A stretch of DNA of 64,000 bases. Source: Chitinophagales bacterium (GTDB lineage Bacteria; Bacteroidota; Bacteroidia; Chitinophagales; JAUHXS01). A program made the translations under genes and the position numbers. Positions 1 through 42,410 of the stretch are shown here, piece after piece (position 1 is the stretch's first letter; each line of letters begins with the position of its first letter). The stretch lies in NCBI GenBank assembly GCA_965213575.1, contig CBDBZN010000003.1, forward strand, positions 2,372 through 66,371, in the 5' to 3' direction. The notes beneath the pieces are model-generated. The model was given only the letters and a program-made list of their open reading frames with translations. It had not been told where the DNA came from and did not search any database.

Positions 1-805
1 GTTTTCGAACGATCGGAATTACGCCCCATAAAAAAACACTTACTGTCCATAATCGTATTGGATATTGATCTGATCTGATATTTTGAAAATTAGGTTTAAT
101 GAAAGGCATTTGTTTAGCCATCCAGTTAAAAATACGATCACTATTGCACCATACTTTCGCAGTATTCGGTTCATTTTTTTTAAAATAATGATAGGAATTA
201 TAAGCAGTAAACCAATGCCTGCCTGATTCATTAATAAAGATAGGGTGGGGGTCAAATTTTTCTTTCAATATGCCATAACTCAATAAGCTGTCTTTGCCAC
301 CGCTACTTAAGATCGCATATTTATTTTCATCAGGTTTTTTGTCAACTTTAGCTTTAGTTAAATGAGCATATCCATCTGTTTGAAATTCAATTTGTGCATG
401 AGTATAGCGTTTGGGTTTCTCAACTTCTAACTGATTATAAGTAGCTAATAAAAACTCTGTTGGTTGAAGTAGCTTATGTACGTATATTTCACGACTGGTA
501 TTTTCTATCATATCCAATATGAATCTTTGATCTGTAACATCATATAAGCCTTCAAAAACAATTTTTTCACAAAAAAGTCCGTAATTCATAGCTACTTGAG
601 CTACCATTATAGAAGCTATATTAACATCATCCCTATTTTTTGATTTAAAGACAGCTTCATCATATGAATAGATAAATTCATTATTTACCGAAGATCCATC
701 TTTCTTTTCTAAGGTATAAGTTGCTTTGGTTTGTCTGGGGCGGATAGAAAGATCATGCACTCTCAGACAATCGAAGGATACAAAGTCTTTGAGGGTGATG
801 CTCAT
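1..805 (-). CDS. PP-loop (SGGxDS) ATP-pyrophosphatase-superfamily protein, first ~268 codons only (continues past the window start)
   Basis: Absent from the ORF track because no stop lies in the window. My own translation from ATG 805..803 (ATGA overlap with the TGA stop of 802..1878) stays open to nt 1: MSITLKDFVSFDCLRVHDLSIRPRQ...KYAILSSGGKDSLLSYGILKEKFDPHPIFINESGRHW... SSGGKDS fits the PP-loop SGGxDS motif. Confidence 0.5.
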   Translation of the reverse strand, partial: MSITLKDFVSFDCLRVHDLSIRPRQTKATYTLEKKDGSSVNNEFIYSYDEAVFKSKNRDDVNIASIMVAQVAMNYGLFCEKIVFEGLYDVTDQRFILDMIENTSREIYVHKLLQPTEFLLATYNQLEVEKPKRYTHAQIEFQTDGYAHLTKAKVDKKPDENKYAILSSGGKDSLLSYGILKEKFDPHPIFINESGRHWFTAYNSYHYFKKNEPNTAKVWCNSDRIFNWMAKQMPFIKPNFQNIRSDQYPIRLWTVSVFLWGVIPIVRK

Positions 806-26675: not shown

Positions 26676-27179
26676 ATGGTTGTTTTTCTTATTGGTTTCA
26701 TGGGGTCGGGCAAAACTTATCTCGGTAAATCTGCAGCAAAACTTTTACAATACAATTTTATTGATTTTGATGAATATATAGAGCAACATACACACCAAAC
26801 TATCCCTGAAATTTTCGAAAGGAAAGGAGAGGTATATTTCCGACAAGTGGAATCGCATTTATTAGAAAAGATGAAGCTGAAAAATAATACGATCATTTCT
26901 TTGGGTGGTGGCACACCTTGTTTTAATGATAACATGAGTTGGATTAAAGAAAATGGCCGGTCTATTTATCTAAAAGTCTCTGTTCCTGTATTATACAATC
27001 GGCTTATTATAAATAAAACGGCTCGGCCACTGCTCCGTAATATAAGTGATGAAAATTTATCGGATTATATAACATTTAAACTTAAAGAGCGAGAAGTATA
27101 TTATAATCAAGCTACTAAAACAATAAATGCAGATATGATGACAGGTGAGGAGTTAAAAAGAGTTTATAAAACTGATTAA
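26676..27179 (+). CDS. aroK: Shikimate kinase AroK
   Basis: 167-aa ORF. Contains Walker A GFMGSGKT, the LGGG motif and small size. Confidence 0.9.
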   Translation: MVVFLIGFMGSGKTYLGKSAAKLLQYNFIDFDEYIEQHTHQTIPEIFERKGEVYFRQVESHLLEKMKLKNNTIISLGGGTPCFNDNMSWIKENGRSIYLKVSVPVLYNRLIINKTARPLLRNISDENLSDYITFKLKEREVYYNQATKTINADMMTGEELKRVYKTD

Positions 27180-27312
27180 AAAGGCAAATAGCTAGAAGAG
27201 AAATTATATACTATATTGATGTTTGGTATAATTTAAAAGGACACATTCTTCTTTGGGTTATTTGAGCTCTGTAGAATTTATAAAGAAAAATCAATTAGAT
27301 AATGTGGCTTGA
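27180..27312 (+). mobile_element. 3'-terminal remnant of an IS3-family-type DDE transposase gene (copy A)
   Basis: The translation reads ...EIIYYIDVWYNLK and, after a 1-nt frame slip, RTHSSLGYLSSVEFIKKNQLDNVA*. This matches the conserved C-terminal YN..R.HS.LGY.SP.EF signature of IS3-type integrase-core transposases. No upstream part or inverted repeats were identified. Confidence 0.4.
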
Positions 27313-27510
27313 ACCCTTCCCTTCATTTTTAAACCATCCTTTATGTGAGATTCTGTAATATAGAAATGTAGAATATGGTTTGAAGAATCTAGTGGATCTT
27401 CTGCAATTTTTAGCTTGAGTGTTGGCTGGTGCGAAATGAGAAACATTCATGAACACCAACAAAAATTAAACCTGAGTAATTGCAAATGTGTATGGCTTTT
27501 AGCGTAGGCA

Positions 27511-27599
27511 TTATTTCGTTATTACTCTGTTTTTCTTAAAATTCTCCGCTTGTTCAAAGATGTCTTTATATACTTCGTCTCTTTCTACTGGCGGATAAC
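27511..27599 (-). pseudogene. hsdR 3'-terminal remnant (last ~29 codons)
   Basis: Near-identical at the nucleotide level to the 3' end of intact hsdR (33463..33551, ...PPVERDEVYKDIFEQAENFKKNRVITK*). Homology stops abruptly at 27599. Confidence 0.75.
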
Positions 27600-27833
27600 T
27601 TTCCTCGTAATAACGCCATGTTGAGTGGTTGTCTGGAATTTCCGGACATCTACATTTTCGTCCAGTTCCTCTTCGTTAAGAATATTTCTAATATGCTCGC
27701 TGATGGTGCGCTTATCCTTGCCAAACATTTGCGCCATCTGTGCTTGGGTAAGCCAAACGGTTTCTTCCTTCAAGCGAACATCTATTTTGATGTTATCGTC
27801 TGGGTTTTGGTATAGGAGGATATCGCTGGTCAT
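27585..27833 (-). pseudogene. Truncated RhuM-family gene (N-terminal ~78 codons) fused out of frame to the hsdR tail
   Basis: MTSDILLYQNPDDNIKIDVRLKEETVWLTQAQMAQMFGKDKRTISEHIRNILNEEELDE..VRKFQTT aligns with the N-terminus of the 332-aa RhuM at 37142..38140. The ORF ends 15 nt past the junction at 27599/27600. Confidence 0.75.
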
Positions 27834-27836
27834 ATT

Positions 27837-29261
27837 TTATTCTTCCGTGATTTCTTTTAAGTATTTTCTCATTTGTTCAATTGAAGACTCTAAACTCTTG
27901 TATTCAGCCACTCCGTTATCTGCTCGATGGTGTATTTGATTTCTTATGAAAGTATGAATAGTAACCTCATTCTGACGCCCCATCCAAGGTGAATCTTTTG
28001 GTTTACCTTTTTCAGTCTGAAAAAAAGAAATATCAAAGTCTTTTATTTTATTAGTTGTTGCTTTCAACTGCATAAGTCTTTCATAGAGTTCATTGTGATA
28101 TTCTTCCGAAGCAAGTTTGAAAGCAATAAAATTAACTTCATTTGAAGACACATAAGGCAATAAAGCTAATTCAGGATTTGTAACCGATACAGAATTTTCT
28201 GTTTTAATTAAGATTTTAATTTGAACATTGTTATTGCCCATAGCTTGCTTAATAAACAGCGGTGAATGAGTAGTTAAAATGATTTGAGAATCTTTGGAAA
28301 ACTCTAACAATAAATCAATAAAGTCAGATTGCAGCTTTGGGTGTAAATGAAGTTCAGGTTCATCAATCAAGACTATTAGTTTTTTATGTCCTTTCTTTGA
28401 AAGATAGTATGCGTAGATTAAGGAAAATATCATTTCATACCCTGAACCTAATTGATTGAGAGGTATAGACTGTAAATTCTCTTTGTCTGTTCCAAAAAAG
28501 GCATTTGCGAAAGGGTTCCAATTATCAATTAATTTAAGTTTTAATTGATTTCCAGTTATTTCTGAAAATTTATCAATTGCCTCCCTAATACCTCCAATTA
28601 CTCCTTTGCCTTCAATATTTTTAACCTCTTTTAAAGTATTATTGCAATCTAATGGATTATCTTTTTTTTGAATATATTGATAATTCAAATCCTCCATTAT
28701 CCTGTCAAAGCGAGTATTGTTATAAGTGCCTTTTCGTGTTTGATATGTTCTATTTTTGTCAAGAATTAAGTATTCAATATCATTAAACCTTGAGCCACTC
28801 CAAGGATTGTTGACAGATAATCTTAAATCAGGCGTGTTATCCTTTGGTCTTGTTTCGCCATCTGCCTTAATATACTGTTGGTCTGTTACAACCATTGAAG
28901 ACAAAAAGCCTTTGTTATCTCTATTTCTTCTTCCTCCTTTGAAGACAAAACCTTTGCCCTTAAATTCAATTTTAGGCATAGTTCCTTTGTAGGTATAAAC
29001 TTCATTCGTATGAATATTTATTTCAACTTTTTCGTTGGGGTTATTAATGTCAGATAAAGTAAAGGAATCTGTTTTATAGGAAACATAGGGCATTGCAAAA
29101 GCATCCAAAAGAGTCGATTTTCCACAACCATTTTCGCCAACAAAAACCGTCAATCCTGAACCATTATTGTGATTATCAGGAACATTTAAATCATTAATCT
29201 CAAAGAACTCATCTGGTGAAAAGAGCTTATAATTTTTTATTTGGATGTTTTTTATAAACAT
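27837..29261 (-). CDS. ABC/SMC-type (AAA_15/AAA_21-like) ATPase with C-terminal HEPN-like R-x4-H domain; PrrC-like candidate
   Basis: Likely start is MFIKNIQIKNYKLF (ATG 29261..29259). Contains Walker A GENGCGKSTLLDA, signature-like LGSGYEM, Walker B LIVLIDEPELHLHP and H-loop TTHSP. A C-terminal region of ~130 aa carries FIRNQIHHRADNG. The ATPase call is solid; the C-terminal function is inference. Confidence 0.75.
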   Translation of the reverse strand: MFIKNIQIKNYKLFSPDEFFEINDLNVPDNHNNGSGLTVFVGENGCGKSTLLDAFAMPYVSYKTDSFTLSDINNPNEKVEINIHTNEVYTYKGTMPKIEFKGKGFVFKGGRRNRDNKGFLSSMVVTDQQYIKADGETRPKDNTPDLRLSVNNPWSGSRFNDIEYLILDKNRTYQTRKGTYNNTRFDRIMEDLNYQYIQKKDNPLDCNNTLKEVKNIEGKGVIGGIREAIDKFSEITGNQLKLKLIDNWNPFANAFFGTDKENLQSIPLNQLGSGYEMIFSLIYAYYLSKKGHKKLIVLIDEPELHLHPKLQSDFIDLLLEFSKDSQIILTTHSPLFIKQAMGNNNVQIKILIKTENSVSVTNPELALLPYVSSNEVNFIAFKLASEEYHNELYERLMQLKATTNKIKDFDISFFQTEKGKPKDSPWMGRQNEVTIHTFIRNQIHHRADNGVAEYKSLESSIEQMRKYLKEITEE

Positions 29262-29289
29262 AATCTTAGCTTTCGAATGTTTCAACTTT

Positions 29290-29515
29290 CATACTCTCCA
29301 CAACCATTTCATCAGTACAGGGCAAAGTGGTTTAATGCTTTTCTTTAGCTGCTCGTTGATGCGTTACGGGTTTCTAATGTGTGGTAAATGGTTACTATGG
29401 CTTCTTGTTTTTCTATGGTCGGAATGGGCAATTTTAACCTGCACATATTTCAAAATCGAAAAATTCGTGTGCACTTCTTCTGAAAGTGTATTTATTCGCT
29501 CTAAAAGTTTTGACA
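29290..29515 (-). pseudogene. hsdS 3' remnant (end of a TRD plus C-terminal conserved region), frameshifted
   Basis: The translation ...VKLPIPTIEKQEAIVTIYHTLETR... parallels the intact hsdS C-terminus ...VKLPIPDIKIQEAIVTIYHTLEARKRINEQLKESIKPLCPVLMKG. Nucleotide similarity to 38925..39090 is visible by eye, and the frame is lost after TR. Confidence 0.6.
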
Positions 29516-29519
29516 TTTC

Positions 29520-32500
29520 TTAAATCTCAATTTTATCAATCTCTTTCATCAGTCTATCCGTTTCTGAAAGTGCTACAATGATTTTTTGATAATGCAGAAT
29601 GTCGTCAAACTCCAATTTGCGGTCTTTTCGGTCTTTGAGCCATTTTTGGGCAGGTTGATAACCACCAATGTAAAACTCCCAAGCGACTTGAGGGACATTG
29701 TCAAAATACTGCGTGTCGTTGATAAATACTTTACCGTCATTGTATTTGGGTTTGCCCACCACATTATCTCCGTCCGTTGGATATTGCGTAATGTATTGCT
29801 CAACGGTTGGACTTTCTAATAAATGAATTTGCCGTATTTCTCCGCCCATTTTTACCAAATGCCAAAAAGTGTCTTTGTCTTTGGGATAAGGAACTCTCGG
29901 AAAATCAATTTTTAAAAATTCGTTATATGTCTCTCGGTATGTTGGCGAATGCAAAACTGCATAGATGTAATCTAAAATGTCAATTGGGGCAAAAGTATTT
30001 ACTGTTGTTTCTTTTTCGTTAGTAAAAGTTAAATCTAATTTCTCCGCAATTCGTTTTACAATTTCTTTATTTAAGTTAGGAACTCTTTCAGTAGTCGGTT
30101 CAATGGTTTGTTGTCCATTACTTTCTGGGTATAAGTAGAGTGGAAAAAGGCAACCTGTGCCAAATAATTTAGCACTTGCTGTAAAGTTTCCCTCAATTAT
30201 TTTGTCTGTAATAAAGTTATGTCTATAATCTTGTGTTGTTTGTCTTGGAATAATTAATCCAATATTAGGTTGAAGTAAATGTTGCATAACTTCAAATCTC
30301 GAACGACCAATAAAACCGCCCGAATTTTTAGTAATTATTGTTTCTTTTACATCAAAAGGTCTGTAGTTAATTTTTACTTGTTTGAACGTATCATTTAAAA
30401 TACTCTCTTTGGCTCGTGCAAATGTCCAACCGCTTGAATCTTGTTTTTCCTTATACTTTGATTTTAAAAAATCAACAGTTTCAATCTCGAAATCATTTAT
30501 CACGGTTTGAAGTTTTTGATTGGAAAATTGAATAGCTAAAGCGTCACATTTAGTTTCTACGCCATTAGAGTTTGAATTTAAAACTTCATTTACTTTAAAT
30601 CCTTTTTCGTAATTTTTTATCAGTTCAAAATCTTTTGGAACGAAAAAGTAATATGGCTGAGAATAGACAAGCTTTTCCCATTTGATTTCAGAAATAGTTG
30701 AATTGTTAAGTGTTTCATATTTGTGATTCCTTTTTCCTTGCAAATCAAAATGATAAACTTCCCCTAATTCCGTTTTCTTCTTTTTATTTGTTTTTACAAA
30801 TATGTTAATTGAAACACCTTGCATAATATCAAACACATTTTGGTCAGGGCTTCCATCAGGGTAAACTTCTTTTTTCTTGGCATTTCCGTGTAAATCCAAG
30901 ATGTAAATTTTATCAAAACTCTCTAACAAGTGTTTCCGCATTTGCCTGTGAGTAATACCATCTAGGAAGCTGTTATTAGAAATGTAAGCCAAAACGCCAC
31001 TTCCATTTTTGTCGATATAATGTTGTCCGTAGCGAATGAATTTGATGTAATCATCATCCAAATTGATTTTTCGTTCATTGAGCTTTTTCTTGTAGTCAGA
31101 AATTAAATTTTGAATTCAATCATTCTTATTGGTACTGCTAACAGCATAAGGCGGATTTCCAATTACACACATTACAGGCGTGTCTCGTTTGATGTGGTTG
31201 GCTTCATTTGCTTCTGTGCTCAACCAATTGGCAAATAATGTTCCTGTGTCTTGGTGGTGCTCTTCTAAACTATTGGTAAGATATACTCGTAGACGTTGGC
31301 TCTTCTCTACTCCGCTCGAAGTAACAGATGGCTTAAATCCTGTATCGGTCAATAATAAATCTAACTTTAAATGTGCCATTGCATAACTCGCCATTAGCAA
31401 TTCAAATCCGTTCAAGCGTGGCAATAAATGAGTTTCTACATAATTGCTCCAAATACCTTGTTGTCCTTGGAATTTTTTGTGAATGTGCTTTACCACTTCG
31501 GCTAAGAAAGTTCCTGTTCCTGTGGCTGGATCCAAAATTTGTACTTTGTGTACTTCTTGCTCCATTTGTTTGTAACCTGTTGCCGAACGTTTGTCTGCGG
31601 TTTGGGTGTTTACTTTTATGGTTGTTTTGCTGGTGTCTGCAAGTCCTTGAGGTAAATCAAATTCCGTTTTTAGAATGTCGTCAACTGCCCGAACAATGAA
31701 GTTTACAACGGGTTGTGGTGTGTACCAAACGCCACGAGCTTTACGTAGCTTTGGGTCGTATTCGCTTAGGAACGTTTCATAAAAATGGATAATCGGGTCT
31801 TCCATTTTAGTGGCTTTCCCGTAGTTCTTCAAAATTTCTTCTACGTTACACGCTAAAAAGATTTCAGAAAGGTTCTCAACTACCCATTTAATTCGGTCGT
31901 CAATGTCTGGTCCTGCAATGTAGCCAAAGAGTTTACGTAAAAACGGATTTGATTTTGGAATCAGTTCAGCCGCTTCTTGCCTGTTAAAATTATCCAAAGT
32001 AGGATCGTGCAAACGAGCCGCAAACATTCCATAAGCAATGGTTTGAGCGTAAACATCCGCAAAACCTTGTGGCGTAATGTCGTGGATCAAAATTTGCTTA
32101 AAAGCCAACATTTGGTCTTTCAGCGTACTGTTTTCTTGGTTTTCTTCATCACTGGTCAACGACTTTTCGATGATATCAGAAAGAAGGCGTGCTTTGCCCG
32201 CCATCATTTCTGCTAATTTTTTTGAGCTTTTTATCGTTTGTCCAACGTGAACGCAAAAGTCTAGGATTAGGTTTTCAAAGTTGCCAAAGTTCTCAGGTAA
32301 AGGTTTTATTCCCTTATCTGTTATTTCTGCAATGGCAATTTTGGTAACAAATTCGCCTTCTCTGTACAGATGAAAGTTAATGTAGTCGGTAAAAACCAAA
32401 TTATTTAGAGAAGCTTTGTATCGATCGAACTGCTCTTTGTTTCCTGTTTTCTTTGTGCCGTCAAGGTCTTTGTCGCCAATGTCTTTGGCTTCAATAAATC

Positions 32501-32693
32501 CAACAGGAATATCTTTTTTAGTCAAAATGTAGTCAGGTGCTCCACAACTTTGTCTTTTCGGTTCGTTGGTTGCTCTGATTGTCGGCACCAAACTTTCCAA
32601 GAGTTGCTGTAAGTCGCCACGGAAAGTATGTTCGGTTGCGTTTCCGAGTCTATACCTTTTGTCTAAGTTGTCAATATATTGTTCTAATGTCAT
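29520..32693 (-). pseudogene. Type IIG (fused endonuclease-methyltransferase-TRD, MmeI/Eco57I-like) R-M enzyme interrupted by a single in-frame TGA
   Basis: ORFs 31116..32693 and 29520..31061 are in the same frame, separated only by TGA (31116..31118) and 18 sense codons. N-terminal PD-(D/E)xK is GAPDY..GFIEAKD. MTase motifs are GVWYTPQPVVNFIV, ILDPATGTGTFL and GNPPY. The reading through the stop is ...NPPYAVSSTNKND*IQNLISDYKKK.... Confidence 0.8.
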
Positions 32694-32700
32694 TTATTCA

Positions 32701-32915
32701 TTCAATTTCTGTCAGAGCGTTGGCATTGCGTGTCGGAAAAAACCAAATGTGCTGTTTGTGCGGTTGGTTTTTTTGTATGTTGGCCAACGTAGAAATGAAA
32801 ACAATTGTTTTTCCATATATATAGCTATTTATTTAACTACTATAAATGTAATAATATTCAAGTCTTTGTACAAATTAAAGTTAAACTGACATCTTCAATT
32901 TTCCATTAATTCAAA
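32701..32915. repeat. Direct repeat X, copy 1 (5' leader/promoter region of the type IIG gene)
   Basis: Shares a near-identical core with 42108..42274 and a second block (32878..32915 vs 42373..42410). Copy 2 has an extra ~98 bp between the blocks. Confidence 0.8.
32843..32873 (-). promoter_or_regulatory. Candidate Bacteroidota-type promoter (TTG-N20-TAcaTTTA) for the type IIG gene
   Basis: The minus strand reads TTGtacaaagacttgaatattatTACATTTAtag, matching the -33 TTG / -7 TAnnTTTG architecture. The same element is conserved upstream of hsdM. Confidence 0.3.
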
Positions 32916-33130
32916 TTTATCTAAAAGTCTCTGTTCCTGTATTATACAATCGGCTTATTATAAATAAAACGGCTCGGCCACTGCTCCGTAATATAAGTGA
33001 TGAAAATTATCGGATTTTATAACATGTAGACTAAAAGAGCGAGAAGTATATTATAATCAAGCCACTAAAATAATAAATGCAGATATGATGACAGGTAAAG
33101 AGTTAAAAAAGAGTTTATAAAACTGATTAA
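32915..33130 (+). pseudogene. Degenerate duplicate of the aroK 3' end (last ~72 codons)
   Basis: Aligns to 26964..27179 but carries several indels and substitutions (for example gatgaaaattatcggattttataacatgtagac vs gatgaaaatttatcggattatataacatttaaac). These destroy the frame, and there is no 5' part. Confidence 0.75.
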
Positions 33131-33262
33131 AAAGGCAAATAGCTAGAAGAGAAATTATATACTATATTGATGTTTGGTATAATTTAAAAGGACACATCTT
33201 CTTTGGGTTATTTGAGCTCTGTAGAATTTATAAAGAAAAATCAATTAGATAATGTGGTTTGA
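33131..33262 (+). mobile_element. 3'-terminal remnant of IS3-family-type transposase gene (copy B)
   Basis: Same sequence as 27180..27312 with one additional 1-nt deletion. Confidence 0.4.
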
Positions 33263-33462
33263 ACCCTTCCCTTCATTTTTAAACCATCCTTTATGTGAGG
33301 TTCTGTAATATCGAAATGTAGAATATGGTTTGAAGAATCTAGTGGATCTTCTGCAATTTTTGGCTTGAGTGTTGGCTTGTGCGAAATGAGAAACATTCAT
33401 GAACACCAAAACAAAAATTAAACCTGAGTAATTGCAAATGTGTATGGCTTTTAGCGTAGGCA

Positions 33463-36400
33463 TTATTTCGTTATTACTCTGTTTTTCTTAAAATTCTCTG
33501 CTTGTTCAAATATGTCTTTGTATACTTCGTCTCTTTCTACTGGCGGATAACCGTGTTCGTCTAAGAGGATTATTAGTCCGACTTTTAAAGCGGATTTTAT
33601 GTCTTCTCGTTTGCTCCAATCTGGATATTTGGCTTGTGAGTCCACCAAGTCTTTCACCGCCTGGGCTAAAACAATTAGTTTGTCTTCGGGATATTTGAAG
33701 TCATACTTTATACACAGGTCTTTCAAAATGTCGTAAAAGGCTTTTTCTTCAAAGTCAATTCCTAATTCGTCTCCTGCTGAAAATTCCTTTTGAACTTCCC
33801 AAATCAAATTGGTCAAATGCTCTGCCATTTCTTCGTACACTTCGCTTCGTAAAATATCATCTTCTTTTCGTTCGTTGTAGCGTTCAACCAAGGTTTGCAT
33901 TTTCTTGGAAAAGTCAATTCCTTTTACTTTATTGACTTTTTTAATCTCTCCAATGGCTTTGGCTAAAAGCTGTTGGAGCAATTTTATTTTAGTGTGCGGC
34001 AACTTGATTTTATCAATCTTTGCCAAATAGTCTTCTGAAAAAAGGTCTTGCTCGCTTTGGCTTTCATCTCCAAGTTTGAAAATTTCTTGTACGCCATCAC
34101 TTTCCAAAGCGTATTTTATCATTTCCCGAACTTTGGCATTCATTTGTGCCGTGTCGGGTGCAGTGCCTTTGGTTAGTTTAAAAACGATTGACCGAACCGC
34201 TAAATAGAAATGGGTGTAATCTCTTTCTTTCTGCGCTAAACGTTCACTTCCTGCACAAATATCATAAGCGGCTTTCAGACGTTTTACCAAACCCATAAAT
34301 CGGGTTTCTAAATCTTTGGTCAACTGAACATATTCTGCAGCCATATTTAAAGAGTTCAACTGTTCTAAAGCTGCACCACCGAAATATTTTGAACTGTCGA
34401 ACTTATGGAAGACTTTAGCCAAAAGGTCTAAATGGTTTTTTACGACTATGAGCGATTCTTGAATGTCTTCAAAATTTTCTCTTTCTCCTTTGTTGTATTT
34501 GGCAAGAGCCATATTCATAGCCTTTTTGATGCCAATATAATCGACAACCAATCCTTTGTTTTTTCCTTCAAACTTTCGATTAACTCTCGAAATGGTCTGA
34601 ATTAAATTGTGTTGCTGAATAGGCTTGTCAATGTAGATTGAATCTAAGAACGGTACATCAAAACCAGTGAGCCACATATCAACCACAATGGCAATTTTGA
34701 AATTGGATTTTTCATTTTTAAACTGCCTGTCCAATTCTTTGCGGTATTCTTTAGTGCCGAGCAAATCGTACATTTCTTTGGGGGTCGTCTTTTCCTCTAG
34801 TCATTATCATTTTGATACGCTCCATTGGTTTAATTTCCCTTTTGTTGTTGTCCGTTAAAACAGCTCCTTCTTCAGCAATACGTAATTCTGCCCATTCAGG
34901 TCTTAAAGAGATTACATTTTTATAAAACACGTAGCTAATTTCACGGCTGCTGCAAACAAACATTGCTTTGCCTTTTACAGTTGCTCCTTCGTTTACTCTG
35001 TTTTCGTAATGCTGAACAAAGTCTTCTGCCAATTTCAGCAAACGGTCCGGGTCGCCTAAAATGGAGTTCATTGTTGCCGTTGCCTTTTTGCTTTCTTCTA
35101 TTTGGTATTCATTGGCTCCTGCTTCGGCTGCTTCTTCGTAGTATTTTTCAATTTTCTCTAATTCGCTATTGTGCAAGGCGACTTTAGCTGCTCTGCCTTC
35201 ATACACAATACGAACGGTGATTTCATCTCTTACCGATTCTGTCATTGTGTAGGCATCTACTACTTGGCCAAATACATCCAAAGTAGCATCAATGGGCGTC
35301 CCTGTGAAGCCTACAAAAGTGGCATTAGGTAAAGAATCGTGAAGATATTTTGCAAAACCATAGGTTTTCTTAACACCTTCGGAAGTAACCTTAACTTTTT
35401 GATCGAGATTGGTTTGGCTTCTATGGGCTTCATCCGAAATACAAATTACATTAGTTCTTTCCGTAAGCAGTTCGGTGTCTTCTGTAAACTTGTGAATGGT
35501 GGTCAAGAATACGCCACCGCTATTTCTGCCTTGCATTTTGGTGCGTAAATCGGCTCTGCTTTCTACACTTTCCACCGCATTGTCTCCAATGAATTGTTTG
35601 GCGTTGGTAAATTGTCCTGCCAATTGGTCGTCTAAATCGGTTCTATCGGTAATGAGTACAATGGTAGGACTTTCGAAATGCTTACTTTTCATCAACAAGC
35701 GGGTGAGATAAAGCATTGTAAAACTCTTGCCGCTTCCTGTTGCTCCAAAGTAAGTTCCGCCTTTTCCGTCTCCGTCTGGCTTCTCCGCTTTTTTAATGTT
35801 TTCGTACAAACTGCGAGCAGCGTAATACTGCGGATAGCGACAAACTATTTTCTCGTCTTTTTTGGACGAATCAGGAATGTAAATAAAGTTCTGAATAATA
35901 TCCCTCAAGCGGTTTTTATGCAACATTCCCTGAACCAAAGTGAACATACTGTCTATGCCGTCCACATCTTTTGCCAAACCTGCAATTCTTCGCCAAGCGT
36001 AGTAAAACTCGTAAGGGGCAAAGAATGAACCTGCCTTGTTGTTCACACCATCACTGATGATGCAAAAGGCATTGTATTTAAACAGTTCAGGAATGTCTCT
36101 TTTATAGCGAGTGGTCAGTTGAACAAAAGCATTGTGAATGGTGGTATTTTCCTGAATGGCTGTTTTAAATTCAAAAACCACCACAGGCAAACCATTGACG
36201 TATAATATGCCGTCCGGGATTCTCCTTTCGGTGCCAACAATTTCTATTTGGTTGACAAACTTATAAATATTTGTATCAGGCGGATATTGTTCCTCAGGCT
36301 CGGCAGCAATAATGTCTAAATTTTCACTTTGTCGCTGACGGTCTAAACCTGCATAATCAATGAGCGAAATATGAATGTCTTTTTGGTTGCGGTCTTCTCG

Positions 36401-36682
36401 TTTCAGAATAAAACCGTCCGCCAACCACCGCATTATTTTTTTGTTGCTTTCGTAAAGGTCTGTCGAAGAAAGTGTTTTGAGTTGCAGAATAATGGTTTGG
36501 GCTTCTATTTCAGTTAGATTGGCGTTTTGATAGCGATTGAGCAAATATGCTTTCAGGTCTTCTTCAATCAATACTTCATCTTCACTGATACGTACCAAAC
36601 TACTGCCCACAAAATGCGGATAACCTTCATTTCCTAAAAGCTCTGTAAATGCTTGCTCTAATTTTGCCTCCGTAAATTTCAT
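33463..36682 (-). pseudogene. hsdR: Type I restriction enzyme R subunit HsdR, split as assembled by a +1 frameshift in a G5/C5 run
   Basis: ORFs 34751..36682 (N-terminal nuclease and helicase: FGATGSGKSFTM, ISDEAHRSQ DEAH box) and 33463..34773 (helicase C and C-terminal helical domain). With four instead of five G at 34780..34784 the frame reads ...IMTRGKDDPKEMYDLLGTKEYRKELDRQF.... Confidence 0.9.
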
Positions 36683-37119
36683 CGTCTCGAACTATGATTT
36701 TTCTGATTTTCTGATGGACTTTGAATTCGTTTGGGTTTCATAACCCGTTTGAATTGAAGCGATGTATTTCCAAAATTGATTAATAAGCCGATTTCCATTC
36801 CATAGGCTTCAAGGTAGTTGATGGCCTGTGCCAAATGCACATCTTCCAATTCTTTTACCGCCTTGATTTCCAACATTATTTTATCCTCAATAAAAAAGTC
36901 AACCCTTCTTGTTCCTATATCAAAACCTTTGTATTGCAGAGGCATTTCTTGTTCCCTTACGTGGGTAATTCCCTGCATATTTAATTCAATAGACAGAGCT
37001 CTTTGATAAACAACTTCCTGAAAACCATTTCCTAAATATTTGTGCAATTCCATAGCACAGCCAATAATTTTGCCCGTTAATTCGGAATACTTATACTTTT
37101 CATCAATCATAGTTTTCAT
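36679..37119 (-). CDS. GxxExxY-family protein (PD-(D/E)xK fold), paralogue 1
   Basis: 146-aa ORF. Contains GNGFQEVVY (the GxxExxY signature) and RRVDFFIEDKIMLEIKA (D...ExK nuclease-like motif). Its stop overlaps the hsdR start (ATGA). Confidence 0.8.
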   Translation of the reverse strand: MKTMIDEKYKYSELTGKIIGCAMELHKYLGNGFQEVVYQRALSIELNMQGITHVREQEMPLQYKGFDIGTRRVDFFIEDKIMLEIKAVKELEDVHLAQAINYLEAYGMEIGLLINFGNTSLQFKRVMKPKRIQSPSENQKNHSSRR

Positions 37120-38144: not shown

Positions 38145-38901
38145 TTAAAATTTAATGCTTTTGGTTTCTTTAAATGTTTTAAACAAGAAGATTGCCACCG
38201 AGCCTGCTAAATTGACTGCTAATTCACTATGTCTTTCTGATGGTTTGATGTTTTTTTTTGCTTTTTCCGTGAGCATCTCCAAGTTTGTTTCTCAACGCTC
38301 CTAATCCACTAACAATACCGCTTGCTCCCCCAAGAATTTGTTTAAAGATTTGCTCCTGATGATGTTCCGGTGCTAAGTTTAAAGATTTTGCAACTTCTCT
38401 ATATAATTCTGGTAATTCAGCCGCATCATTGTATTCAATATCTTGTTCGTCTAAAATGTGCTTTAATATGCTTTCAATTAATGTTCTAGCCGCTGTTATC
38501 GCACCTTCGGGTTCGATTTGTTTCCGTTCAAGAGCTTTTTGCCATTGCGAATGAATATGTGCTTCATCAAACACAATGCTTTCTTCTAAAGGTGAAGTAG
38601 ATTTCTTTTCCAAATAGTTTAGGACTGGGGCAAACTCACTCCATAAAAAATCTCTACGTTCTTGATAAGTACTAAATCTTCCTTTTATAAATGTCCAAAA
38701 TTGGTCAATAGTCCTTTTTGTCTTTATCCATTCTGGTAGCAACTTTTCTAAGGCTTTGTTCCCAATCAGTTTAGTCCTTACTGTGGTATATAATTGATTA
38801 TCAAAGTCACTCCCTGTAGCCCTTGCAACTACTCCATCTTGGAAGTATTCGACAAGTTGAAATTCACTCAATTTATTTAGTTGGTCTAGTTCTTCTTTCA
38901 T
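38145..38901 (-). pseudogene. Abi_C-type (abortive infection C-terminus, HEPN superfamily) protein, C-terminus shifted as assembled by a +1 frameshift in a T9 run
   Basis: The likely start MKEELDQLNKL (ATG 38901..38899) overlaps the hsdS stop (ATGA). GALRNKLGDAHG is the R-x6-H HEPN motif typical of Abi_C. The track ORF stops at 38227. Deleting one T of 38251..38259 extends the frame to ...AHGKSKKNIKPSERHSELAVNLAGSVAIFLFKTFKETKSIKF* (stop 38145..38147), which matches the usual Abi_C tail. Confidence 0.7.
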
Positions 38902-40091
38902 CTCATCACTGGCTCTTTTTCCATACTCTCCACAACCCCTTTCATCAACACAGGGCAAAGCGGTTTTATACTTTCTTTCAACTGTTCATTGATGCGTTTA
39001 CGAGCTTCTAAAGTATGGTAAATCGTAACTATGGCTTCTTGAATTTTAATATCTGGAATGGGCAATTTTACATCACACATATCTGCCCAAGTGAATAGTT
39101 CCGTTGAACTTCCCCAAGAATGAAAACGAGCATATCGGTCAAATTCTGAACGATAAAAAAATAAATACAGATATGCTGGATTGAGTATGTTCAGAGCATC
39201 CTTTTTTACTCTAAATGCATTATTATTCCAACTTGTTAGAAAGGTTTCTTCGGTGTTGTTGTAACCTAAGCCTACCTTGTCACCCATCCGAGTTGTACGA
39301 CTGTTGTAAACGAATTCACCTGGCGATATCACATAAAATCTTTCGAGATTTCTTCCTGCATTATTCGCTTTTGTTGGCATAAACTGCTTGCTATTAGAAA
39401 CCCCACGCACATCATCAACACCGTACTTCAAATCACTATTACGTAGCTCATTCAACTCAATATATTCTCCCAATCTTCTGAGTGGCTCTTTCTTAATCAA
39501 ATCCTCAATGTAGGTATCACAAATCAGCTGCAAATCTTCTAAGCTGTTTGCGTAGGTTTTTTGGTTCGTGAGCAAGCCTTTGTATAGGGCTACATATTTG
39601 CTTTGTTCGTCAATATCAATATCTGGAATTTCCATATCGCAAAGCCTATCCCATTCTAAACCTCCTCTCACACTGGAATCACAATATGTCCAAGCCTTTC
39701 TGTCAAATTCAGGGCGTTGAAACTCCATCATCAAAAATTCTGGAAGTAATTCATTTTCATCAATTACCTCAAAAGTGATGTATGCAGGTGAGACAAGGGC
39801 AGGTTTGTCTTCTGTGAATAATGCAACAGGTAAAACTTCATCTCTGTTAACGTGCATTAAATTAGTAGCAAACTGTCCTTTTTGAATGACTTTGTATTTT
39901 GATAGGTCTAAACCCGATTGATTTGCTACGGAAGGCATAAAGTTTTTGAAAATATTTACACCCAATAGATTAGAAACCGCCAAATCTTTATTGCGGTTGT
40001 TTATCTTTTGTATGTAATCTCCCAAGCGTCTGAACCTTGATTTTGCAAGATTTTCTTGATGACTTGATTTTTTAACTCCCTTTGTAATCAT
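38898..40091 (-). CDS. hsdS: Type I restriction enzyme S subunit HsdS
   Basis: 397-aa ORF. Two target-recognition halves are separated by conserved repeats (MEIPDIDIDEQSKYVALYKGL and VKLPIPDIKIQEAIVTIYHTLEARKRINEQLKE). Its start overlaps the upstream GxxExxY stop (ATGA). Confidence 0.85.
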   Translation of the reverse strand: MITKGVKKSSHQENLAKSRFRRLGDYIQKINNRNKDLAVSNLLGVNIFKNFMPSVANQSGLDLSKYKVIQKGQFATNLMHVNRDEVLPVALFTEDKPALVSPAYITFEVIDENELLPEFLMMEFQRPEFDRKAWTYCDSSVRGGLEWDRLCDMEIPDIDIDEQSKYVALYKGLLTNQKTYANSLEDLQLICDTYIEDLIKKEPLRRLGEYIELNELRNSDLKYGVDDVRGVSNSKQFMPTKANNAGRNLERFYVISPGEFVYNSRTTRMGDKVGLGYNNTEETFLTSWNNNAFRVKKDALNILNPAYLYLFFYRSEFDRYARFHSWGSSTELFTWADMCDVKLPIPDIKIQEAIVTIYHTLEARKRINEQLKESIKPLCPVLMKGVVESMEKEPVMR

Positions 40092-40468
40092 GGTTCAAGC
40101 CTTTTATTATTATGCACTCGTTTATGTTGAAGGCTTTTTGCACCAAAATTGATTAGCAAACCAATTTCAAGATTATAAGCCTCCACATAGTTCATTGCCT
40201 GTGCTAAATGCACATCCTCTAAATTTATTATCGCTTTGATTTCTACCATAATTTTATCCTCAACAAAAAAATCTACTCTTCTTGTGCCAATGTCATATCC
40301 TTTGTACTGCAAAAGCATTTCATGCTCACGACTAAATGCTATTCCATGCATTTGCATTTCAATTGCTAATGCTCTTTGGTAAACAACTTCCTGAAATCCA
40401 TTTCCCAGATGCTTATGAACTTCCATTGCACAACCTATAATTTTGTATGTTAAATCCTCATATTTCAT
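40088..40468 (-). CDS. GxxExxY-family protein (PD-(D/E)xK fold), paralogue 2
   Basis: The track gives a TTG start at 40507. I prefer ATG 40468 (MKYEDLTYKIIGCAMEVHKHLGNGFQEVVY...), which aligns with paralogue 1. RRVDFFVEDKIMVEIKA is present. By eye roughly three quarters of aligned residues are identical to paralogue 1. Confidence 0.8.
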   Translation of the reverse strand: MKYEDLTYKIIGCAMEVHKHLGNGFQEVVYQRALAIEMQMHGIAFSREHEMLLQYKGYDIGTRRVDFFVEDKIMVEIKAIINLEDVHLAQAMNYVEAYNLEIGLLINFGAKSLQHKRVHNNKRLEP

Positions 40469-40496
40469 AATCAAGTGATCGAATAATCCTTTTAAA

Positions 40497-42071
40497 TCAT
40501 GGTTCAAGACTGTAACCCAAAGTTTTAAAAACGTTTATCAATTGTGCTTGTGAGTCTTCTTCTTCTTTTAGCAGGGTTTTAAAATCTTGCTGAATGCGTT
40601 TCATTTCGGTGTCAAAGTCAATGCCGCTGTCTTTGTCCACAAACTCAATGTATTTGCTCGGTACCAATGAAAAATTGTTGGCTTTCAAATCTTCAAAACG
40701 GGCAGATTTACAAAACTCGGGTACATCTTTGTAGGTGGTTTCATAATCGGCTTGTTGCCAATTGTGAAAGTTTAGTGCTACTTCCTTTATATCGTCTTCT
40801 GTGAGTTCAATGTATTTTTTCTCGTACTCGCTGCCCCAACGCCTTAAATCCATAAATAGGATTTCGCCTGAGCGGTCTCGGTAGTTTTTGGGTTTGTCTT
40901 TGGTATTGTCCGTACGTTGCTTTTTGTTTTTGTTCAAAATCCAAAGCGTAACGCTGATGTCAGTGGTATAAAAGGTATCTCGGGGAATGATGATAATGGC
41001 TTCCACCATATCATTTTCAATCAACTTTCTACGGATTTTATATTCTTCGCCACCGCCCGAAAGTGCGCCATTGGCAAGAATGAAACCTGCTACGCCATTT
41101 TCAGAAAGTTTGCTCACCATATTCAAAATCCAACCGTAGTTGGCGTTGCTTTTTGGTGGTACTTCATAGCCCATCCAACGTGGGTCGTCCAAGAGTTCGT
41201 TTTCCCCTCGCCAATCCTTCAAGTTAAATGGCGGATTCGCCATAATGTAATCGGCTTTCAGGTCTTTATGTTGGTCGTTGGAAAAAGTGTCTGCGTGTTT
41301 GTCGCCAAGGTTGGCAGCAATACCACGAATGGCTAAATTCATTTTCGCCAATTTGTAAGTGGTAGGCGTGTTTTCCTGTCCGTAAATGGAAACTTCTTTT
41401 TTGCTTCCCTGATGTGCTTCAATAAATTTGATAGACTGCACAAACATTCCGCCTGTTCCACAGCAAGGGTCATAAATGATGCCTTTATAGGGCTCTATCA
41501 ATTCTGCCATCAAGTTCACAATGGTTTTGGGCGTATAAAATTCGCCTTTGCCTTTTCCGCTGCTTTCTTTCAGGGCAAACTTGCCCAAGAAATATTCATA
41601 CACATGTCCAATTACATCTTGTCCGTTGTCTTTGAGCGTGTCAATGTCGTTGATGGTGTCGAGTAGGGAAGCGAGCTTGGTTTTGTCCAATGCCAAACGT
41701 GAAAAATAATTGTCGGGCAAAGCCCCTTTTAACGCAGGGTTGTTTTTCTCAATGGTGTTGAGAGCCGTGTCAATTTTTAGGGAAATGTCGTTTTGCTTGG
41801 CATTTTTGATAATGTAGCTCCACCGGGAAATTTCTTCCAAGTAGAACACATTTTTCATAGCGTAGAAATCTTTCATTTCCACGTATTTTTCTTTGCCTTC
41901 GGCAATCAGTTCTTTTCTGCGTTGCTCAAATTTGTCGCTGGCGAATTTCAGGAAAATCAATCCGAGTACTACATGTTTGTACTCGGCAGGCTCTACCGAA
42001 CCTCTCAACTTGTCGCACGATTGCCACAAGGTTTCTTCAATCGCTTTTTCCTTTACTTTCTGTTTGGCCAT
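40497..42071 (-). CDS. hsdM: Type I restriction enzyme M subunit HsdM (N6-adenine DNA methyltransferase)
   Basis: 524-aa ORF. Contains an HsdM N-terminal domain (LWQSCDKLRGSVEPAEYKHVVLGLIFLKF), motif I IYDPCCGTGGMF and motif IV IMANPPFNLKDW. Confidence 0.95.
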   Translation of the reverse strand: MAKQKVKEKAIEETLWQSCDKLRGSVEPAEYKHVVLGLIFLKFASDKFEQRRKELIAEGKEKYVEMKDFYAMKNVFYLEEISRWSYIIKNAKQNDISLKIDTALNTIEKNNPALKGALPDNYFSRLALDKTKLASLLDTINDIDTLKDNGQDVIGHVYEYFLGKFALKESSGKGKGEFYTPKTIVNLMAELIEPYKGIIYDPCCGTGGMFVQSIKFIEAHQGSKKEVSIYGQENTPTTYKLAKMNLAIRGIAANLGDKHADTFSNDQHKDLKADYIMANPPFNLKDWRGENELLDDPRWMGYEVPPKSNANYGWILNMVSKLSENGVAGFILANGALSGGGEEYKIRRKLIENDMVEAIIIIPRDTFYTTDISVTLWILNKNKKQRTDNTKDKPKNYRDRSGEILFMDLRRWGSEYEKKYIELTEDDIKEVALNFHNWQQADYETTYKDVPEFCKSARFEDLKANNFSLVPSKYIEFVDKDSGIDFDTEMKRIQQDFKTLLKEEEDSQAQLINVFKTLGYSLEP

Positions 42072-42107: not shown

Positions 42108-42410
42108 TTCATTCTGTCCGAGCGTTGGCAAAAATCAAATGTGCTGTTTGTGCGGTTGGCTTTTTTGTATGTTGTCCAACGTAGAAATAAAAAACAATTA
42201 TTTTTATTCCATATATGTAGCTATTTTATTTAACTACTATAAATGTAATAATATTGAAGTCTTTGTGCAAATTATTAATATTTAATGTAAAACATAAAAC
42301 CGCATAATTATACGAATAACTCTACGGTTTATGATAGCTTATCAAAGAGATGCTATACTCATTCAGTATAAAAAGTTAAACTGACACCTTCAATCTCCCG
42401 TTAATTCAAA
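42108..42410. repeat. Direct repeat X, copy 2 (5' leader/promoter region of hsdM) with ~98-bp insertion
   Basis: 42108..42274 and 42373..42410 match 32701..32877 and 32878..32915. 42275..42372 is specific to this copy. Confidence 0.8.
42240..42270 (-). promoter_or_regulatory. Candidate Bacteroidota-type promoter (TTG-N20-TAcaTTTA) for the type I operon
   Basis: The minus strand reads TTGcacaaagacttcaatattatTACATTTAtag. This is the same element as at 32843..32873. Confidence 0.3.

What the first reader, a model, noticed from the sequence alone, without database searches (positions are those of the whole stretch)
27837..29261. Intact ABC-type ATPase with C-terminal R-x4-H domain sitting in the PrrC slot of a decayed type I locus
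This 474-aa protein has an N-terminal ABC/SMC-type ATPase: GENGCGKSTLLDA, LGSGYEM, LIVLIDEPELHLHP, TTHSP. About 130 further residues contain FIRNQIHHRADNG, which fits the R-x4-6-H HEPN RNase signature. It lies directly downstream of an hsdS remnant (29290..29515) and upstream of rhuM and hsdR remnants. That is the hsdS-to-hsdR position that the anticodon nuclease PrrC (ABC ATPase + HEPN-type ACNase) holds in the prr locus. It is the only undamaged gene of cassette 1. The type IIG gene has a nonsense codon, hsdS and hsdR are reduced to stubs, and rhuM is truncated. This pattern suggests the ATPase is retained under selection and may act on its own or with the intact type I system 4 kb away. It does not resemble PrrC in length or in the motifs I can recall, so it could be a distinct family.
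Basis: partly seen in the sequence, partly recalled or inferred. Interest (0 to 1): 0.7.

Follow-up and report, generated by a model that had tools for sequence, protein, structure and literature searches.

The report
Restriction-linked ATPase with putative RNase tail
This intact gene encodes a widespread but uncharacterised one-protein module, an OLD-type ATPase "sensor" fused to a small helical domain with the hallmarks of a HEPN RNase. In relatives it is often wired into restriction-modification operons at the position held by the anticodon nuclease PrrC, so it is probably a back-up anti-phage suicide switch.

Summary
Window 27837..29261 (-) is an intact 474-aa ORF with all ABC-ATPase motifs and a conserved ~110-aa C-terminal domain.

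It belongs to a large unnamed family (~750 clusters at 50% identity; Bacteroidota, Patescibacteria, Firmicutes, Proteobacteria, a DPANN archaeon). The C-terminal domain occurs only fused to this OLD-class ATPase, in place of OLD's Toprim nuclease.

An 85%-identical orthologue sits in an intact hsdM-hsdS-ATPase-hsdR operon. Of 58 surveyed loci, 32 have R-M genes (types I, III, II) within three genes; the rest stand alone. E. coli members sit at a prophage edge and a Klebsiella member between IS elements. No conserved partner gene exists.

The C-terminal domain meets the published sequence criteria for catalytic HEPN domains: R440 100%, next residue N/H/D, H445 97%, motif at the end of a helix, E391 in the preceding core helix. 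But a confident model (pLDDT 89.6) matches no PDB or viral structure, and profile comparison with the KEN RNase domain aligns only the motif. The HEPN assignment is therefore likely, not proven.

It is not a PrrC family member: no AAA_13 match and no PrrC triad.

The "intact" type I system nearby has a frameshifted hsdR.

Verdict: a new variant of a known kind (ABC-ATPase–RNase guardian). Interest 0.55.

The parts
27837..29261 (-). Intact 474-aa gene: OLD-class ABC ATPase (res 1-~345) plus conserved C-terminal helical domain (res ~364-474)
29115..29138 (-). Walker A / P-loop GENGCGKS (res 42-49); G42, E43, N44, G47, K48 invariant in 31 homologues
28434..28451 (-). ABC signature LGSGYE (res 271-276)
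28353..28379 (-). Walker B and D-loop LIVLIDEPE (res 295-303); the H-loop His332 follows at 28266-28268
28620..28916 (-). Insert in the ATPase head (res ~116-221): highly conserved in sequence but modelled with pLDDT <50; function unknown, possibly a sensing or partner-binding surface
27840..28172 (-). C-terminal domain (res 364-474). Order: helix (S372, E375, N377), helix (E387-Y-H-N-E391), an extra helix plus beta-hairpin insert, a helix ending in R440-N-Q-I-H444-H445, then a long last helix
27927..27944 (-). RNQIHH: putative HEPN-type R-x4-H catalytic motif (R440 100%, N441 N/H/D, H444 92%, H445 97%)
28089..28103 (-). EYHNE (res 387-391): conserved acidic/polar cluster in the second helix (E391 94%, H389 92%)
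29262..29519 (-). hsdS 3' remnant (~60 codons, at least two frameshifts by my reading), ending a few bases before the ATPase start as in intact orthologous operons
29520..32693 (-). Type IIG/IIL-like single-chain restriction-methylase gene (PD-ExK, FxGxG and NPPY motifs; MTase similar to LlaGI and a DrdV-like enzyme), broken by one in-frame stop at 31116-31118
27585..27833 (-). rhuM 5' remnant (first ~73 codons), starting 3 nt after the ATPase stop
27511..27606 (-). hsdR 3' remnant (last ~30 codons)
26964..27608 (.). Left copy of a ~645-bp direct repeat (aroK 3' end, intergenic DNA, hsdR 3' end). The right copy is 32915-33560 (92-100% identical), so cassette 1 is bracketed by the same flank as cassette 2

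Best explanation
The gene encodes a self-contained defence protein. Its N-terminal OLD-class ABC ATPase acts as sensor and switch. Its C-terminal ~110-aa helical domain, which replaces OLD's Toprim nuclease, is most likely a HEPN-type, metal-independent RNase with R440/N441/H445 as the active site, assisted by E391 and E375.

By analogy with PrrC, RloC, PARIS and OLD, nucleotide-dependent dimerisation of the ATPase heads would bring two C-terminal domains together to form the active nuclease. It would be unleashed when infection perturbs a guarded target and would cleave tRNA or other RNA to abort infection. Where the gene is embedded in a type I, III or II R-M operon, the guarded target would be the R-M enzyme itself, for example when it is inhibited by an anti-restriction protein.

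Shown here: domain architecture, conservation, operon embedding, absence of a partner gene.

Inferred: the HEPN fold, RNase activity, dimer activation, the trigger.

In this window the cognate type I genes have been deleted, so the protein either works alone, as about half of its relatives appear to, or with the paralogous type I system of cassette 2.
For: - ATPase: AAA_15/AAA_21 hits with all catalytic motifs invariant. Foldseek of the full model matches PtuA, SMC, Rad50 and GajA heads. The enterobacterial members match positions 1-352 of 578 of the PADLOC Old model at E 1e-45 to 1e-50.
- The C-terminal domain is confidently modelled (pLDDT 89.6, pTM 0.81). It is found in ~750 representative clusters and always fused to this ATPase.
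- Conservation across ~143 representatives: R440 100%, N441 N69/H28/D3, H445 97%, H444 92%, E391 94%, E375 91%.
- These features fit the published HEPN criteria: Rx4-6H at the end of helix 3, N/D/H after the R, an acidic residue in helix 2, inserts between helices 2 and 3 (PMC3710099).
- The motif RNxIHH equals the verified IRE1 KEN active-site string RNKKHH. One member hits Pfam Ribonuc_2-5A at E 0.0078. Family-versus-KEN hhalign scores 19.3, which 0 of 200 column shuffles reach.
- Context: hsdM-hsdS-ATPase-hsdR with abutting or overlapping ORFs; type III mod-res-ATPase; type II. R-M genes lie within three genes in 32 of 58 loci. RhuM or Fic-like neighbours recur.
- No conserved partner gene.
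- Strong purifying selection on both halves.
Against: - Foldseek of the confident C-terminal model finds nothing in the PDB (best E 3.5, TM ~0.2) or BFVD, although many HEPN structures are in the PDB.
- No Pfam, PADLOC or NCBIfam HEPN model reaches significance.
- hhalign against KEN covers only 14-18 columns at 1-5% probability, and KEN was picked post hoc.
- About half the family has no R-M neighbour, so 'R-M guardian' cannot be the general mechanism.
- H444 and H389 are also conserved, which would equally suit a metal site.
- There is no experimental datum for any member.
Confidence: 0.55

Rival explanations
1. The C-terminal domain is a nuclease or other effector of a different or new fold, for example a metal-dependent DNase using H389/H444/H445/E391/E375. 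It would functionally replace Toprim, so the protein would be an OLD-like ATP-dependent nuclease rather than a HEPN RNase.
For: There is no structural match to any HEPN. Three conserved His and two or three conserved Glu could bind a metal. The domain sits exactly where OLD carries Toprim. NCBI names the E. coli members 'ATP-dependent nuclease'.
Against: The motif, its flanking polar residue, its position at a helix end and the helix-2 acidic residue all fit HEPN rules. The beta-hairpin is not conserved in sequence or length, which argues against a His-Me finger. There is no hit to any metal-nuclease family.
Confidence: 0.2
2. The protein is a non-catalytic accessory or regulatory ATPase of restriction enzymes. 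The C-terminal domain would be a docking or nucleic-acid-binding module, and the protein would modulate restriction rather than kill the cell.
For: It is tightly coupled translationally inside R-M operons of three types. NCBIfam has 'restriction system-associated AAA ATPase' and MADS3 models with weak similarity in the ATPase.
Against: Half of the loci lack R-M genes, including the E. coli prophage-edge and IS-flanked plasmid copies. The same protein accompanies unrelated type I, III and II enzymes. The near-invariant R/H/H/E constellation looks catalytic.
Confidence: 0.1
3. In this particular genome the gene is a silent relic of a decayed cassette. It would be intact only because too little time has passed, and it would contribute nothing.
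For: Every other gene of cassette 1 is broken, and its cognate hsdM/hsdS/hsdR are gone. The measured purifying selection reflects the long branch to an 85% orthologue, not recent history.
Against: A 1,422-nt ORF survives with no lesion among four damaged neighbours. All catalytic residues are retained. Stand-alone relatives are common.
Confidence: 0.15

Closest known systems
PrrC anticodon nuclease (E. coli prr locus) and its relative RloC
   Same: Single polypeptide with an N-terminal ABC ATPase and a C-terminal small helical nuclease domain assigned to HEPN. The gene is inserted between hsdS and hsdR of a type I operon, often with RhuM or Fic-like neighbours, and fits the proposed 'guardian of restriction' logic (PMC3710099, PMC2610378, PMC12707154).
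   Different: No match to Pfam AAA_13. The ATPase is OLD-class, not Rad50/SbcC-like. The PrrC/RloC triad R-x3-E-x31-52-H is absent and is replaced by E...R-N-x-I-H-H. It is longer than my recollection of ~396 aa for PrrC. It is also linked to type III and II systems, or to none.
OLD-family nucleases (P2 Old, class 1/2 OLD) and the related GajA, AriA and PtuA ATPases
   Same: The ATPase head is the best sequence and structure match. It is a single-gene or compact defence module, found at prophage edges in E. coli.
   Different: There is no Toprim domain; a ~110-aa helical domain takes its place. There is no AriB, PtuB or GajB-type partner gene.
KEN RNase domain of Ire1 / RNase L (a HEPN family)
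   Same: Identical active-site string pattern R-N-x-x-H-H at the end of a helix. It is the only sub-threshold Pfam hit of a HEPN type.
   Different: Similarity is limited to 14-18 columns, with no fold-level match. KEN is eukaryotic, kinase-linked and circularly permuted (PMC3710099).
APECO1_4465 and ERFG_01251 groups of ABC-ATPase-HEPN fusions (Anantharaman et al. 2013)
   Same: The published description fits the contexts seen here: ABC ATPase with a C-terminal HEPN, in R-M operons with RhuM or Fic-like genes and in prophage islands (compare).
   Different: The prototype sequences could not be retrieved, so identity with either group is untested. APEC O1 has no DNA-level relative of the E. 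coli member.

Membership tests
PrrC/RloC anticodon nucleases | Sequence membership (Pfam AAA_13, which by my recollection is the model covering PrrC/RloC) | tested here: not met
   AAA_13 is absent from the Pfam hits at E<=1; the best hits are AAA_15 and AAA_21
PrrC/RloC anticodon nucleases | ACNase triad Arg-x3-Glu-x31-52-His in the C-domain | tested here: not met
   The triad is defined in PMC2610378. The conserved residues here are E375, E387/E391, R440, H444 and H445, with no R-x3-E
PrrC/RloC anticodon nucleases | Gene embedded between hsdS and hsdR of a type I locus | tested here: met
   Intact operons in orthologues. In the window only remnants flank it
PrrC/RloC anticodon nucleases | tRNA anticodon-loop cleavage, silenced by the R-M enzyme and triggered by an anti-restriction factor | not testable with these tools
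   Needs experiments
HEPN superfamily | Conserved Rx4-6H motif with N/D/H after the Arg | tested here: met
   R440 100%, N441 N69/H28/D3, H445 97% of ~143 representatives; criterion from PMC3710099
HEPN superfamily | Motif at the end of core helix 3 going into the loop to helix 4; conserved acidic residue in helix 2; inserts between helices 2 and 3 | tested here: met
   Secondary-structure order of the pLDDT-89.6 model against the description. This tests topology only; coordinates were not inspected
HEPN superfamily | Significant structural or profile similarity to an established HEPN family | tested here: inconclusive
   Foldseek on PDB and BFVD found none. Pfam KEN E 0.0078 is below the cut-off, in 1 of 20 members. 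hhalign against KEN gives P 0.008 over 18 columns and exceeds 200 of 200 shuffles
HEPN superfamily | Metal-independent endoRNase activity | not testable with these tools
   Needs biochemistry
OLD-family nucleases | OLD-type ABC ATPase domain | tested here: met
   PADLOC Old model positions 1-352, E 1e-45 to 1e-50, for the enterobacterial members; the window protein matches the ATPase part of Old, GajA, AriA and PtuA models; PDB 6p74, E 7e-10
OLD-family nucleases | C-terminal Toprim nuclease domain | tested here: not met
   No Toprim hit in Pfam or PADLOC on the C-terminus. The domain is ~110 aa, helical with one hairpin, and has no Foldseek match
Two-gene ABC-ATPase systems (PARIS AriAB, Septu PtuAB, Gabija GajAB, AbiL/RloAB, HEC-01..03) | Conserved adjacent effector gene | tested here: not met
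   Neighbour clustering and Pfam scans found no recurrent partner
APECO1_4465-type ABC-HEPN fusions | Sequence similarity to the prototype (gi 117623091) | not tested
   The prototype was not retrievable: the supplement holds no sequences and three 50-kb windows of APEC O1 were read without finding it

The most novel reading that the evidence does not exclude
The C-terminal domain is a previously unrecognised nuclease module with no detectable structural relative. It would be either a very divergent HEPN branch or a new fold that converged on the R-N-x-x-H-H site of Ire1 and RNase L. It has displaced Toprim in OLD-class ATPases to create a one-protein 'restriction guardian' able to monitor type I, type III and type II enzymes alike, which would make PrrC-style back-up immunity far more widespread and generic than the single E. 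coli paradigm suggests.
Probability: 0.25. Interest if true: 0.75.

Novelty: new variant of a known kind. Interest (0 to 1): 0.55.

Why it matters
PrrC is the textbook case of a suicide RNase that guards a restriction enzyme, but it is a narrow family. Here a different and much more widespread ABC-ATPase family (~750 clusters at 50% identity across many phyla) occupies the same operon slot. It also sits in type III and type II operons, at prophage edges and on plasmids.

None of its members is named or modelled in Pfam, NCBIfam or PADLOC v2 beyond 'AAA family ATPase'. If it is an RNase switch, it:
- adds a single-gene defence system to the catalogue;
- widens the 'guard the restriction enzyme' principle;
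- shows modular effector swapping (Toprim for a HEPN-like domain) on OLD-class sensors.

Natural E. coli and Klebsiella members make it directly testable.

For this window, it explains why one gene survives in an otherwise eroded cassette: relatives commonly work without neighbours.

Tried and rejected
- A homologue search with the C-terminal domain alone returned only fragments because of the word prefilter. It was replaced by the exhaustive profile search.
- Profiles A2 and A4 against PDB sequences gave only chance-level hits (MJ1213 E 0.07, Sec63 E 1.1). Single-sequence PDB searches with two divergent members gave nothing relevant.
- The weak Pfam NTP_transf_6 hit (E 0.0012, below cut-off, 4 of 20 members) could not be interpreted and is not used.
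- His-Me/HNH (beta-beta-alpha) was considered because a hairpin precedes the RNxIHH helix. I rejected it because the hairpin varies in length and sequence.
- Toprim and DUF4435 were considered. There are no hits, and the domain is too small and helical.
- A conserved small upstream partner was considered because many stand-alone loci have a 150-250-aa gene just upstream. I rejected it because those genes are unrelated: NTPase, cytidylyltransferase, DpnII-like, HNH, M23 peptidase.
- No HepT/DUF86-type proteins for a second profile test were found in the fetched loci.
- Krishnan et al. 2020 (PMC7544218) is not held.
- The hunt for APECO1_4465 in the APEC O1 chromosome (three 50-kb reads) failed and was abandoned.

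Full report
**1. The observation**

The ORF at 27837..29261 (-) exists exactly as described: 474 aa from the ATG at 29261, with an in-frame TTG eight codons upstream. Homologues begin at MFIK, so the ATG is the likely start. Translating the sub-coordinates returns GENGCGKS, LGSGYE, LIVLIDEPE, THS and RNQIHH. Pfam AAA_15 (E 4.5e-30) and AAA_21 (E 3.5e-26) cover residues 1-337 only. PADLOC and NCBIfam hit only the ATPase parts of AriA, PtuA, GajA, Old, MADS3 and similar models, all far below the family cut-offs. Residues ~345-474 have no family.

**2. Local context**

- The 258 nt upstream of the ATPase are the last ~60 codons of an hsdS, 78% identical in DNA to the cassette-2 hsdS, with at least two frameshifts by my reading.
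- The type IIG/IIL-like gene (29520-32693) carries PD-ExK, FxGxG and NPPY motifs, and its methyltransferase resembles LlaGI, LlaBIII and a DrdV-like enzyme. It has a single in-frame stop at codon 526 of 1057.
- Three nucleotides after the ATPase stop begins a rhuM stub, 74% identical to the first 73 aa of the 332-aa paralogue. It runs into the last ~30 codons of an hsdR.
- The whole cassette is bracketed by a ~645-bp direct repeat (26964-27608 and 32915-33560, 92-100% identical). This repeat contains the aroK 3' end and the hsdR 3' end. The region upstream of the IIG gene (32732-32877) also repeats the region upstream of hsdM in cassette 2 (42124-42274). So two alternative defence cassettes with the same borders lie in tandem.
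- One correction: the cassette-2 hsdR is not intact. It is split at a C5 run near 34775 into ORFs that match reference residues 1-637 and 638-1069.

**3. The family**

More than 1,200 full-length homologues were found, the listed ones (down to ~55% identity) 465-490 aa long. The sources name them only 'AAA family ATPase', 'AAA15 family ATPase/GTPase' or 'predicted OLD-family endonuclease'. A genome scan extends the family to ~27% identity in Bacteroidota, Patescibacteria, Clostridia, Bacilli, Elusimicrobiota, Acidobacteriota, Proteobacteria and a Woesearchaeote.

An exhaustive profile search with the C-terminal domain alone finds 750 representatives at 50% identity. The domain is always C-terminal in ~450-560-aa proteins; the shorter entries look like gene fragments. 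Proteins of unusual length still carry AAA_15, with extra N-terminal LRR, Bro-N or SLH segments. So the domain occurs only fused to this ATPase.

The enterobacterial members match positions 1-352 of 578 of the PADLOC Old model at E 1e-45 to 1e-50. The family is therefore an OLD-class ATPase in which the Toprim nuclease is replaced.

dN/dS against the 85% orthologue is ~0.04 in both halves, with dS saturated.

**4. Gene neighbourhoods**

The 85% orthologue P0004 lies in hsdM-hsdS-ATPase-hsdR on many contigs, with the hsdR start abutting the ATPase stop. P0076, P0071 and P0118 are also in type I operons, sometimes with a Fic-like/Schlafen or AbiEii gene between the ATPase and hsdR. P0099 follows type III mod-res.

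Across 58 loci classified with home-built HMMs and methyltransferase motifs:

| R-M genes within three genes | Loci |
|---|---|
| Type I | 20 |
| Type III | 5 |
| Other methyltransferase/type II-like (Dam + FokI-like, AlwI-like and others) | 7 |
| None detected | 26 |

Restricting to loci with at least 4 kb on both sides gives 16 of 30 with R-M genes. Junctions are often overlapping or abutting (-11 to +12 nt). No other gene recurs, and the small upstream genes in stand-alone loci are unrelated to each other.

Stand-alone members include:
- a Klebsiella IncFIB plasmid copy between two ISNCY elements;
- a copy in 10 of 5,426 E. coli genomes, immediately after the integrase of a prophage next to rcnR and annotated 'ATP-dependent nuclease';
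- a single full-length member in IMG/VR.

**5. The C-terminal domain**

AF2 on the domain alignment gives pLDDT 89.6 and pTM 0.81. The order of elements is: helix 373-381, helix 386-400, helix 406-417, hairpin 424-433, helix 435-444, a short turn, then helix 454-473.

Conservation across ~143 diverse representatives:

| Residue | Conservation |
|---|---|
| R440 | 100% |
| N441 | N 69%, H 28%, D 3% |
| I443 | 91% |
| H444 | 92% |
| H445 | 97% |
| E391 | 94% |
| L392 | 99% |
| H389 | 92% |
| E375 | 91% |
| S460 | 96% |

Anantharaman et al. 2013 define catalytic HEPN domains by these features (PMC3710099):
- an Rx4-6H motif at the end of helix 3, running into the loop to helix 4;
- a polar N/D/H residue right after the Arg;
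- an acidic residue in helix 2;
- frequent inserts between helices 2 and 3.

If the third helix and the hairpin are read as the insert, all of these are met.

The motif string matches the verified IRE1 KEN site RNKKHH. One divergent member hits Pfam Ribonuc_2-5A at E 0.0078, below the cut-off, and another hits a PADLOC CARF_HEPN model at E 0.014. A 105-sequence family profile against a 37-sequence KEN profile aligns 18 columns around the motif with score 19.3 (P 0.008). None of 200 column shuffles reaches that score (mean 11.0, sd 2.2).

Against this, Foldseek of the confident model finds nothing in the PDB (best E 3.5, TM ~0.2) or BFVD, and no HEPN profile reaches significance. I therefore rate HEPN as likely (~0.6) but unproven. 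The fold could also be new.

**6. Comparison with known systems**

- It works like PrrC (ABC ATPase plus a small RNase-like domain in the hsdS-hsdR slot), but it is not a PrrC/RloC member. There is no AAA_13 match and no R-x3-E-x31-52-H triad.
- It is an OLD-class ATPase but fails OLD membership because it has no Toprim.
- It is not a two-gene system of the PARIS, Septu or Gabija type, because there is no partner gene.
- The 2013 survey mentions further ABC-HEPN fusions (APECO1_4465, found in prophage islands and R-M operons with RhuM or Fic; and ERFG_01251). Those contexts resemble what I see, but I could not retrieve the sequences. Prior computational cataloguing therefore cannot be excluded.
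- Payne et al. 2024 show that genes embedded in defence systems are frequently new defences, and that ABC ATPases are the commonest embedded family.

**7. Mechanism and verdict**

The most likely mechanism is a latent ATPase-gated RNase that aborts infection. Where it is embedded, it probably guards the R-M enzyme. This is inference by analogy; nothing here tests activity.

In this window the gene is the lone intact survivor of cassette 1. Because about half its relatives are stand-alone, autonomous function is plausible, and so is co-operation in trans with the related cassette-2 system.

Novelty: a new variant of a known kind. Interest: moderate (0.55).

Noticed in passing
window 26964-27608 vs 32915-33560; 32732-32877 vs 42124-42274: Two defence cassettes (27.6-32.9 kb and 33.4-42.1 kb) lie in tandem and share both borders. 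One border is a ~645-bp direct repeat that includes the aroK 3' end and the hsdR 3' end. The other is a ~150-bp upstream (promoter-side) region. This looks like stacking of alternative alleles of one defence hotspot by recombination at conserved flanks.
   Followed up: partly
window 34751-34775 (hsdR, 33463-36682, minus strand): The cassette-2 hsdR is split into 643-aa and 436-aa ORFs by a one-base frameshift at a C5 homopolymer (KDDP|K). The pieces match reference HsdR residues 1-637 and 638-1069. It could be a real inactivation, phase variation or a sequencing error. An orthologous locus (L006) also shows hsdR split in two.
   Followed up: partly
window 38227-38958 (-): A 243-aa ORF between hsdS and rhuM of cassette 2, the slot the ATPase occupies in cassette 1, ends in ...GALRNKLGDAHGK. 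That is an R-x6-H string which, from memory, resembles the Abi_C/AbiJ-type HEPN motif. NCBIfam gives no hit, and the only PDB hit is a weak N-terminal match to AF_0924 (E 0.006).
   Followed up: partly
window 36679-37119 and 40088-40507 (-): Two paralogous small ORFs (146 and 139 aa, ~75% identical in DNA) are inserted in cassette 2, one between rhuM and hsdR and one between hsdM and hsdS. Family not determined.
   Followed up: no
proteins P0077, P0082, P0088 (alignment A1, columns ~415-470): Three homologues are close to the window protein through the ATPase and first two C-terminal helices. They then switch to the linker and RHQIHHPEN-type motif typical of the distant subfamily, which suggests recombination within the C-terminal domain between subfamilies.
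   Followed up: no
window protein residues ~116-221 (window 28620-28916): The insert in the ATPase head is among the most conserved stretches in sequence (for example PDLRLSVNNPWSGSRF and LILDKNRTYQTRKGTYN) yet is modelled with pLDDT below 50. It may fold only on a partner or nucleic acid and is a candidate sensing surface.
   Followed up: no
L093 8998-10446 (E. coli SCU-316) and L092 7206-8669 (Klebsiella plasmid pA2508-emrE): Natural enterobacterial family members (WP_233618192.1 and WP_064155835.1). The first sits right after a prophage integrase next to rcnR, in 10 of 5,426 E. coli genomes. The second lies between two ISNCY transposases near a TIR-domain gene. Both would be convenient for experiments.
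   Followed up: partly
protein P0274 (1014 aa): One representative carries ~480 aa of BspA-type leucine-rich repeats N-terminal to the ATPase and C-terminal domain. It is either a real sensor fusion or a gene-calling artefact.
   Followed up: no
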